From positions 1-47,050 of the IMG/VR virus record IMGVR_UViG_3300045051_000179: a stretch of DNA of 47,050 nt; one strand, written 5' to 3'. Shown here piece by piece: positions 40,443 to 40,814 of the stretch; positions within the stretch are counted from its first letter, which is position 1; each line of letters opens with the position of its first letter. The notes beneath the pieces were generated by a model, which saw only the letters and a program-made list of their open reading frames with translations, was not told the DNA's origin and searched no databases. The DNA is from a virus (Duplodnaviria; Heunggongvirae; Uroviricota; Caudoviricetes). Position numbers and translations under genes: made by a program.

Positions 40443-40471
40443 TTGACAAAACTCTCTGATCCTGTTATACT
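40443..40471 (+). promoter_or_regulatory. sigma70-type promoter of the RNase P RNA
   Basis: TTGACA-17-TATACT; TSS about 40478. Confidence 0.85.
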
Positions 40472-40478
40472 CTCGCTA

Positions 40479-40814
40479 GAGAGATGGAAAGACCATCGCG
40501 CATATCCGAATGACTTGTTCTTCGGTGAGTGAGGAAGGTCGGCGCTCCCAGTTGCAGTCTAGTGGTTAACGGCCACCTACCGCGAGGTACGACACGGCAA
40601 CAGTGACGAACCGAAGTAATGTTCGGGTGAAACGGGCGACAGGGTAGACGGAGAAAGTTGGGTACCTATTGGGGCGCAACGCTACGGTACCGGGTAACGA
40701 AATTGAGGCGTCTGGTAACAGCCGCTCAAGTTGGATGATGGTCCTTCAGTTGGGAGACGTTTCATACGTCGTTTGAACCAAGGTCTGACAAAACGCCGCC
40801 TAATGAAATCTCTC
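40479..40814 (+). ncRNA. rnpB: RNase P RNA (catalytic subunit)
   Basis: P1 GAGAGAT/ATCTCTC; P2 CCATCG/TGATGG; GAGGAAGGTCGGCG and ACAAAACGCCGCCTA form the 8-bp P4 with bulged U; P5 CTCC/GGAG; GNRA P9; CAACAG and GTGAAAC around P12. Confidence 0.88.

What the first reader, a model, noticed from the sequence alone, without database searches (positions are those of the whole stretch)
40443..40814. Phage-encoded RNase P ribozyme with its own promoter inside the tRNA island
Seen: a 336-nt RNA starts at the TSS of a TTGACA-17-TATACT promoter. AGG(T)CGGCG at 40536-40544 pairs with CGCCGCCT at 40794-40801 as an 8-bp helix with a bulged U. P1, P2, P5 (CTCC/GGAG), P7 (GTCTA/TAGAC), P8, a GNRA-capped P9 and a short P12 are present. 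Known: this is the P4 catalytic-core signature of RNase P RNA, the tRNA 5'-maturation ribozyme. The conserved segments carry compensatory substitutions relative to the bacterial GAGGAAAGUCC / ACAGAA-CCGGCUUA consensus, and P13/P14 appear absent, as in reduced type B/C RNAs. Inference: the phage supplies its own catalytic RNA to mature about 54 tRNAs, many non-canonical, probably borrowing host RnpA. I regard rnpB as a cellular gene rarely seen in phages.
Basis: partly seen in the sequence, partly recalled or inferred. Interest (0 to 1): 0.92.

Follow-up and report, generated by a model that had tools for sequence, protein, structure and literature searches.

The report
Phage-encoded RNase P ribozyme gene
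A complete 111-kb bacteriophage genome carries its own slimmed-down copy of the RNase P ribozyme, the RNA enzyme that trims transfer RNAs, inside its block of 47 tRNA genes; ten related phages keep it in the same place, and I found no published report of a virus-encoded RNase P RNA.

Summary
Window 40480-40817 (+) matches the bacterial class A RNase P RNA model end to end (93.9 bits, E 8e-29). That is 6 bits under Rfam's cut-off, so a default scan misses it. The record is a complete 111,050-bp phage genome with terminal repeats, not host DNA.

Ten related IMG/VR phage contigs carry the same RNA at the same place: tRNA-Leu(CAA), promoter, rnpB, tRNA-Gln(CUG). Nine score 128-140 bits.

Across the 11 sequences (62-100% identical), 96% of cells in the canonical structure pair and 46 of 86 pairs show compensatory changes (slid controls 5-12). 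P4 and the P6 pseudoknot both covary. P13/P14 are absent in all 11. The clade's P4 sequence was not found in any cellular rnpB searched.

The promoter is conserved in 11 of 11. The phage has no rnpA. Of its 47 tRNA genes, 46 encode CCA and about half sit 1-3 nt apart.

Most likely this is a working ribozyme that joins host RnpA to cut the phage's tRNA arrays. Catalysis and the protein partner are inferred.

It is type A, not B/C, and I count 47 tRNAs, not 54. This scan has noted phage RNase P RNAs on at least seven other genomes. My literature searches found no report.

The parts
40443..40471 (+). Sigma-70-type promoter: TTGACA (40443-40448), 17-nt spacer, TATACT (40466-40471). The -10 ends 8 nt before the RNA 5' end.
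   Evidence: 11 of 12 consensus positions, TG before the -10; an equivalent promoter (8-11 of 12, spacing 17-18, -10 ending 5-8 nt before the RNA) in all 10 orthologous loci, with at least seven different spacer sequences.
40480..40817 (+). RNase P RNA (rnpB), reduced bacterial type A, 338 nt.
   Evidence: RF00010 93.9 bits, E 8.2e-29, model 1-367 of 367; the only hit in the 111-kb genome; ten orthologues and structure-wide covariation.
40536..40544 (+). P4 5' strand AGGUCGGCG with the bulged U (40539), preceded by the J3/4 sequence GAGGA.
   Evidence: 8 pairs, 100% paired in all sequences, 3 pairs with changes on both sides.
40794..40801 (+). P4 3' strand CGCCGCCU, preceded by ACAAAA (Rfam consensus ACAGAA).
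40552..40555 (+). P6 pseudoknot, 5' strand UUGC in J5/7. It pairs with GCAA at 40676-40679 in the P17 loop.
   Evidence: paired in 11 of 11. Pair types are UA/AU/CG, UA/GC, GC/CG/AU and an invariant CG.
40676..40679 (+). P6 pseudoknot, 3' strand GCAA in the P17 loop.
40612..40625 (+). Minimal P12 hairpin (4 bp). It is followed directly by GGGUGAAAC, so P13 and P14 are absent.
   Evidence: 43 model positions deleted; the same gap in all 11 sequences; 3 of the 4 P12 pairs are compensatory.
40692..40696 (+). L15 GGGUA, containing the GGU motif that in type A RNAs pairs with the tRNA 3'-CCA.
   Evidence: alignment to the consensus CGGGUa. GGU is kept in the window, L055, L051, L048 and L050. It is GAGU in L049/L052/L053/L054 and absent in L046/L047.
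40705..40727 (+). P18 hairpin with a GUAA (GNRA) tetraloop.
   Evidence: 8 pairs, 100% paired, 7 with changes on both sides.
40745..40785 (+). P19-like inserted hairpin between the P2 3' strand and the P4 3' strand.
   Evidence: present in all 11 sequences. The outer helix is 93.7% paired and 3 of its pairs are compensatory. It is less regular in the window copy.
39534..39610 (+). tRNA-Leu(CAA), the conserved upstream neighbour. In most relatives it ends about 40 nt before rnpB. In the window about 830 nt with two small ORFs are inserted.
41516..41590 (+). tRNA-Gln(CUG), the conserved downstream neighbour. In eight relatives it starts 1-6 nt after rnpB. In the window about 700 nt are inserted.
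35556..44851 (+). tRNA island: 47 ARAGORN calls with 42 anticodons, all on the + strand. These are the presumed substrates.
   Evidence: 46 of 47 encode the 3'-CCA, and about half of the spacers are 1-3 nt.

Best explanation
Window 40480-40817 is a functional phage gene for the catalytic RNA of RNase P. It is bacterial type A and lacks P13/P14.

Shown: it is a full-length homologue of bacterial rnpB. It lies in a complete phage genome. It is kept at one syntenic position in a clade of phages with large tRNA islands. Its secondary and tertiary pairings, including the P4 core helix and the P6 pseudoknot, are maintained by compensatory substitutions, while the single-stranded core junctions stay nearly invariant.

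Inferred: host RNA polymerase starts transcription at the conserved sigma-70-type promoter, so the transcription start site gives the mature 5' end. In eight relatives the RNA is the first cistron of an rnpB-tRNA polycistron and abuts tRNA-Gln, so an RNase P cut at that tRNA's 5' end would also create the ribozyme's 3' end. The RNA then binds host RnpA, because the phage encodes no rnpA. The resulting enzyme cuts the 5' leaders of the phage's 47 tRNAs. Those genes encode their own CCA and often lie 1-3 nt apart, so one RNase P cut per junction nearly finishes both neighbouring tRNAs. The benefit would be extra RNase P capacity, or capacity independent of host shut-off, during the burst of phage tRNA synthesis.
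For: - RF00010 full-length match, 93.9 bits, E 8.2e-29. It is the only hit in a 111,050-bp terminal-repeat genome that CheckV rates 100% complete.
- 10 of 39 related IMG/VR records carry it, 9 above the 100-bit cut-off at 128-140 bits.
- Every close relative whose contig spans the full island (28-36 tRNAs) has it. Two close relatives without tRNAs upstream of the terminase lack it.
- Synteny tRNA-Leu(CAA), promoter, rnpB, tRNA-Gln(CUG) holds in all ten relatives.
- Canonical structure: 96.3% of cells paired against 32-40% when slid; 46 of 86 pairs compensatory against 5-12 slid and 17 +/- 2.7 shuffled, with 0 of 500 shuffles reaching the observed value. RNAalifold finds the helices unaided, with 44 of 87 pairs compensatory.
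- P4 is 100% paired with 3 covarying pairs. P6 is paired in 11 of 11 with 3 covarying pairs.
- Junctions J3/4, J11/12, J12/13 and J18/2 are nearly invariant at 62-100% overall identity.
- The promoter is conserved in 11 of 11.
- No rnpA and no CCA-adding enzyme in the phage.
- 46 of 47 tRNAs encode CCA, and about half of the spacers are 1-3 nt.
Against: - The window copy is 6 bits below Rfam's gathering score.
- It differs from the consensus at positions the model treats as highly conserved. GAGGAAA becomes GAGGAAG, compensated by U to C on the other P4 strand. ACAGAA becomes ACAAAA.
- Its P1 has only 6 clean pairs and its P19 is irregular.
- The L15 GGU motif is not kept in all relatives.
- In the window the RNA is not followed by a tRNA but by about 700 nt of other sequence, so the self-release idea does not apply directly here.
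- More distant relatives with 27-29 tRNAs manage without rnpB, so the gene is helpful rather than required.
- There are no expression or activity data.
Confidence: 0.85

Rival explanations
1. It is an RNase P RNA derivative that keeps the fold but no longer catalyses. It might act as a sponge for host RnpA to throttle host tRNA maturation, or as a decoy or regulator.
For: The window and L055 copies score lowest (93.9 and 90.5 bits). They carry substitutions at positions the model treats as conserved in P4 and J2/4. The phage has no protein subunit of its own.
Against: The P4 substitutions are all compensated. The bulged U, GAGGAA, GUGAAAC and ACAG junctions are kept. The gene is found only together with large tRNA arrays. 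In eight relatives it is fused into a tRNA operon, which fits a processing role better than an inhibitory one. Nine orthologues pass Rfam's curated threshold.
Confidence: 0.07
2. It is a neutral or decaying passenger: a host rnpB picked up with tRNA genes and drifting without function.
For: The RNA is reduced (no P13/P14, short P12, and a minimal P3 in five relatives). More distant relatives with tRNA islands lack rnpB.
Against: At 62-71% identity between lineages, a drifting RNA would lose pairing. Here 96.3% of cells pair, 46 pairs are compensatory, the core junctions are nearly invariant, and the dedicated promoter is conserved.
Confidence: 0.04
3. It is cellular DNA: a chimeric assembly, a host flank of a prophage, or an attP copy of the host rnpB used for integration.
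For: The genome encodes a tyrosine recombinase at 108757-109218. Another phage in this scan targets rnpB for integration (note e1-5347591).
Against: The genome is complete with 127-bp terminal repeats. The same gene sits at the same position in ten independent phage contigs from different samples. It is full length with its own promoter, and the recombinase is not adjacent (about 42 kb away across the genome ends). The clade's P4 sequence pattern hit no rnpB in one genome for each of 185,579 species.
Confidence: 0.01

Closest known systems
Bacterial type A RNase P RNA (E. coli M1 RNA, rnpB; Rfam RF00010), especially reduced forms lacking P13/P14
   Same: End-to-end match to the class A model. 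P1-P12, P15-P17, P18, the P4 core with its bulged U and the P6 pseudoknot are all present and covarying. Loss of P13/P14 is described as not unusual in bacteria such as the CPR (PMC8172020).
   Different: It is encoded by a virus, with no rnpA in the same genome. The P4 base pairs are flipped relative to the Rfam consensus: GUCCCCGC or GUCGGCGC instead of GUCCGGGC. That pattern hit no cellular rnpB. It has a conserved P19-like insertion, its own promoter directly at the mature 5' end, and in eight relatives a 3' end that abuts a tRNA.
Organellar RNase P RNAs (yeast mitochondrial RPM1/Rpm1r)
   Same: A small dependent genome encodes a reduced RNase P RNA while the protein subunit is supplied by another genome. 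The RNA is matured from a larger precursor (PMC3790967).
   Different: Organellar RNAs are far more degenerate and A/U-rich and use a non-homologous protein, Rpm2p. The phage RNA keeps a nearly complete bacterial type A core and presumably uses bacterial RnpA.
Phage tRNA islands and phage-encoded tmRNA (huge phages, Al-Shayeb et al. 2020, PMC7162821)
   Same: Large phages carry many tRNAs, tmRNA and translation factors, so stable RNA genes of cellular origin occur in phages.
   Different: That paper does not mention RNase P, ribonuclease P or rnpB. This phage is only 111 kb and adds the tRNA-processing ribozyme itself.
Phage-encoded RNase P RNAs noted earlier by this scan on other genomes (e1-1621128, e1-1617056, e1-1858573, e1-1610391, e1-1852908, e1-1599333, e1-1864371)
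   Same: A type A-like, often reduced RNase P RNA inside a phage tRNA array (unchecked AI notes).
   Different: They lie on different DNA. I did not test whether these are one or several acquisitions.

Membership tests
Bacterial RNase P RNA class A (RF00010) | Statistically significant, end-to-end match to the class A covariance model | tested here: met
   model 1-367 of 367, E 8.2e-29. E 1.1e-30. Class A is the best-scoring member of clan CL00002.
Bacterial RNase P RNA class A (RF00010) | Score at or above Rfam's curated gathering threshold of 100 bits (an annotation cut-off, not a biological feature) | tested here: inconclusive
   The window copy scores 93.9 bits, 6 below the threshold. Nine of ten syntenic orthologues score 128-140 bits and one scores 90.5.
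Bacterial RNase P RNA class A (RF00010) | P4 long-range helix with a bulged U, flanked by GAGGAA and ACAGAA-type junctions (the catalytic core) | tested here: met
   40536-40544 pairs with 40794-40801: 8 bp with a bulged U. It is 100% paired in 11 sequences with 3 covarying pairs. The window has ACAAAA in place of ACAGAA.
Bacterial RNase P RNA class A (RF00010) | Type A-specific elements: P6 pseudoknot, P15-P16-P17 with an L15 loop, and P18 with a GNRA loop | tested here: met
   P6 is paired in 11 of 11 with covariation. P15-17 and P18 covary. The window's L15 has GGGUA.
Bacterial RNase P RNA class A (RF00010) | Specificity-domain helices P13/P14 (typical of the family but absent in some bacteria) | tested here: not met
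   43 model positions are deleted in the window, and the same gap occurs in all 11 sequences. This is not a defining feature: PMC8172020 states that bacterial RNase P RNAs missing P13/P14 are not unusual.
Bacterial RNase P RNA class A (RF00010) | Endonucleolytic removal of pre-tRNA 5' leaders | not testable with these tools
   This needs an in vitro cleavage or complementation assay.
Bacterial RNase P holoenzyme | An RnpA (C5) protein subunit, PF00825 | tested here: not met
   No PF00825 match at E <= 1 in the complete phage genome, while 10 bacterial controls were positive. The ORFs next to rnpB have no Pfam match. A host-supplied RnpA is inferred, and the host is unknown.

The most novel reading that the evidence does not exclude
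The phage RNA is more than an extra copy of host M1. It may be a virus-adapted ribozyme that releases itself from an rnpB-tRNA transcript by cutting at the adjoining tRNA. With its re-paired P4 and stripped specificity domain, it may work with altered partner or substrate requirements. For example, it may be tuned to closely packed CCA-encoding phage pre-tRNAs, be less dependent on RnpA, or keep tRNA maturation running when the host's own RNase P RNA is shut off or destroyed during infection.
Probability: 0.2. Interest if true: 0.9.

Novelty: new variant of a known kind. Interest (0 to 1): 0.78.

Why it matters
RNase P RNA is regarded as a cellular and organellar housekeeping ribozyme. Phages are known to bring tRNAs, tmRNA and translation factors, but I found no report that they bring the tRNA-processing ribozyme.

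A conserved, covarying rnpB in a 111-kb phage clade suggests that 5' processing can limit the use of large phage tRNA arrays. It extends viral takeover of translation to RNA maturation.

It also supplies natural minimal type A ribozymes of 310-338 nt. They lack P13/P14 and carry P4 base pairs not seen in cells. That makes them ready material for structure-function work and for testing hybrid phage-RNA/host-protein enzymes.

Practically, these RNAs fall just under or around Rfam's threshold, so standard phage annotation misses them.

Tried and rejected
- The Rfam scan at gathering thresholds found only tRNAs and missed the RNA.
- blastn of the region against 50,697 GenBank phages gave no match. 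The nearest cultured terminase is only 31% identical, so no annotated relative exists to compare with.
- The exact P4 string of the window was not found in IMG/VR. The clade-type P4/L8 pattern in IMG/VR returned only the eight contigs already found.
- The same pattern in the species genomes gave 3 hits, none of them an rnpB. The TAACG anchor may have excluded some cellular rnpB genes.
- The single-sequence MFE was uninformative: z = 0.18 for the ribozyme and -0.02 for the downstream 226 nt.
- No rnpA, Rsr/TROVE, RtcB or CCA-adding enzyme was found in the phage genome.
- The small ORFs flanking rnpB have no Pfam family.
- Host inference failed. Atlas neighbours of the RNR and ThyX are spread over many phyla and viruses.
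- Searches were input slips (protein too short; term too long) and were corrected.
- I did not build a clade-specific covariance model, because a model of about 340 positions would exceed the calibration limit.

Full report
**What is there**

A scan of the whole window at Rfam's gathering thresholds returned only 38 tRNAs. A permissive scan of 39600-41600 found a full-length match to bacterial class A RNase P RNA (RF00010) at 40480-40817 on the + strand. It scores 93.9 bits against a cut-off of 100, with E 8.2e-29 and model positions 1-367 of 367.

The alignment shows GAGGAAGGUCGGCGC and ACAAAACGCCGCCUA in place of the consensus GAGGAAAGUCCGGGC and ACAGAACCCGGCUUA. It also shows a 43-position deletion where P13/P14 lie, a short P12, and an insertion of about 28 nt before the 3' strand of P4.

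So are those for the other helices. The promoter TTGACA-17-TATACT at 40443-40471 matches 11 of 12 consensus positions and ends 8 nt before the RNA.

**Not host DNA**

The window is the first 47,050 nt of a 111,050-bp IMG/VR virus record with direct terminal repeats. CheckV rates it 100% complete, and I confirmed a 127-bp repeat. The genome encodes a terminase, a tape measure protein, RNR, a DnaB-like helicase and a sliding clamp.

This is the only RF00010 hit in the genome. No cultured phage in GenBank is close: the best terminase identity is 31% and there is no DNA match.

**Conservation**

The terminase retrieved 40 related IMG/VR loci at 48-73% identity. I searched the 39 records behind them with RF00010. 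Ten gave full-length hits, nine of them above the curated cut-off at 128-140 bits.

- Every close relative whose contig spans the full array (28-36 tRNAs upstream of the terminase) has the RNA.
- The close relatives without a hit either end inside the downstream tRNA array (L007, L010, L015, L017) or have no tRNAs upstream of the terminase. L016 and L018 are in the second group, with 5.3-5.7 kb upstream and no tRNAs.
- More distant relatives with 19-29 tRNAs (L028, L029, L039) have no RNase P RNA even at E <= 1.

So the gene is a trait of one clade. It always occurs with a large tRNA island, but not every such island has it.

**Synteny and promoter**

In all ten relatives the RNA lies between tRNA-Leu(CAA) and tRNA-Gln(CUG). 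A sigma-70-type promoter lies upstream in 11 of 11 sequences. It matches 8-11 of 12 positions with 17-18 nt spacing, and the -10 ends 5-8 nt before the RNA. There are at least seven different spacer sequences, so the hexamers are conserved and the surrounding DNA is not.

In eight relatives tRNA-Gln begins 1-6 nt after the RNA. L046 and L047 have a 110-nt insert there. The window is the outlier. About 830 nt with two small ORFs precede the promoter, and about 700 nt follow the RNA, beginning with a YrlA-like permuted tRNA-like element.

**Structure under selection**

The 11 RNAs are 62-100% identical, and the window copy is 64-71% identical to all the others. RNAalifold recovered P1, P4, P5, P7-P12, P15-17, P18 and a P19-like hairpin on its own. 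Of its 87 predicted pairs, 44 are compensatory.

I counted the canonical structure with P2 nested and P4 as a pseudoknot:

| Measure | Observed | Slid controls | Shuffled |
|---|---|---|---|
| Cells forming standard pairs | 96.3% | 32-40% | 82.9% |
| Pairs with changes on both sides (of 86) | 46 | 5-12 | 17 +/- 2.7 |

No shuffle out of 500 reached the observed values.

P4 is fully paired in every sequence, with three covarying positions. The window and L055 read AAGGUCGGCG/CGCCGCCU. Eight others read AAAGUCCCCG/CGGGGCUU, and L051 has GUCUCCG, with a U-G pair at one position.

The P6 pseudoknot (40552-40555 with 40676-40679) pairs in 11 of 11 sequences. Examples are UUGC/GCAA, AGCC/GGCU, CUGC/GCAG and UGAC/GUCA.

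The single-stranded junctions stay nearly invariant while the helices change. They include GAGGAA, GCAACAGUGACGA, GUGAAACGGG and CAAGUUGGAUG. This is the signature of a working ribozyme core.

All 11 sequences lack P13/P14, and five also have a minimal P3. The presence of P6, P15-17 and P18 makes this a reduced type A RNA, not type B or C.

**Is the P4 variant cellular?**

The pattern GAGGAAAGTCCCCGC, N{15,30}, TAACG hit three contigs among one genome for each of 185,579 species. None of the three is an RNase P RNA. In IMG/VR the stricter pattern returned only the contigs already found. Within the limits of that pattern, this P4 is specific to the phage clade.

**Why a phage would want it**

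The genome has 47 ARAGORN tRNA calls with 42 anticodons, all in 35556-44851 on the + strand. Of these, 46 encode their 3'-CCA, and about half are separated by 1-3 nt.

In such arrays one RNase P cut at each tRNA 5' end also frees the upstream tRNA with a 1-3-nt trailer after its CCA. RNase P is therefore the main endonuclease needed.

The phage encodes no rnpA and no CCA-adding enzyme. No recognisable protein lies next to rnpB. The window's L15 keeps the GGU motif, which in type A RNAs pairs with the tRNA CCA end. Some relatives have lost it.

**Mechanism (inference)**

1. Host RNA polymerase starts at the conserved promoter.
2. In eight relatives, RNase P cleavage at tRNA-Gln releases the ribozyme's 3' end.
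3. The RNA assembles with host RnpA.
4. The enzyme processes the phage tRNA arrays.

How the 3' end forms in the window copy is unknown.

**Known or new**

Seven completed full-text searches and a reading of the huge-phage paper found no report of a phage- or virus-encoded RNase P RNA. About 1.7 million PubMed Central articles and most subscription journals were not searchable.

Reduced bacterial type A RNAs lacking P13/P14 are known (PMC8172020). Organellar genomes that encode a reduced RNase P RNA and import the protein are the nearest functional analogy (PMC3790967).

This scan has already noted phage RNase P RNAs on at least seven other genomes. I did not check those notes. Two earlier unresolved notes describe the same GTGG-TTAACGG-CCAC hairpin as this RNA's P8, and they are probably further copies.

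**Caveats**

The window copy and L055 are the most divergent and score just under Rfam's threshold. There are no expression or activity data. The host is unknown. Single-sequence folding energy carries no signal. The covariation rests on about eight distinct lineages.

**Verdict**

This is a real, selected, phage-encoded reduced type A RNase P RNA. It is a new variant of a known kind and of high interest to RNase P and phage biologists.

Noticed in passing
window 40815-40931 (+): Directly after rnpB lies a permuted tRNA-like element: T-arm, then an acceptor-like stem TAAGGA/TCCTTA closed by a loop, then a D-arm, with the ends paired as CCGAGG/CCTCGG. It matches Rfam YrlA weakly (28.4 bits, cut-off 69, E 0.0018). 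The phage has no Rsr/TROVE or RtcB, and none of the ten relatives has the element at this position. It is the subject of a separate first-reader note, e1-5438018.
   Followed up: partly
window 40926-41033 (+): A hairpin domain of about 110 nt closed by a 9-bp stem AUCACGAGU/ACUCGUGAU follows the YrlA-like element. The folding energy is no better than shuffles (z = -0.02). Its function is unknown.
   Followed up: partly
window 38295-38368 (+): A tRNA with anticodon CUA (amber suppressor, labelled tRNA-Pyl by ARAGORN) scores 61.3 bits against the tRNA model. The large ORFs read normally under code 11.
   Followed up: no
window 35556-44851; L048:675-837: ARAGORN calls no tRNA-Trp or tRNA-Tyr in this phage, although relatives L048, L052 and L053 have them. 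The gaps of several hundred nt in the island may hide non-canonical tRNAs. One candidate is a weak tRNA-like hit at 39735-39807 (16.7 bits). The call tRNA-Ser(ACU) at 44480-44580 overlaps tRNA-Asn and looks spurious.
   Followed up: no
L064 (genome 108757-109218, minus strand; outside the window): A tyrosine recombinase (PF00589, 105 bits) shows that the phage may be temperate or uses a resolvase. It is not adjacent to rnpB.
   Followed up: no
L016, L018, L029, L039: L016 and L018 (terminase 69% identical) have no tRNAs in 5.3-5.7 kb upstream of the terminase. L029 and L039 have 27-29 tRNAs but no RNase P RNA. The tRNA island and rnpB are therefore gained or lost as accessory modules within this phage group.
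   Followed up: partly
other genomes (notes e1-1874796, e1-1875868): Two earlier unresolved notes describe 330-360-nt ORF-free structured stretches containing a GTGG-TTAACGG-CCAC hairpin. That hairpin is identical to P8 of this RNA (40562-40576). They are probably unrecognised phage RNase P RNAs.
   Followed up: no
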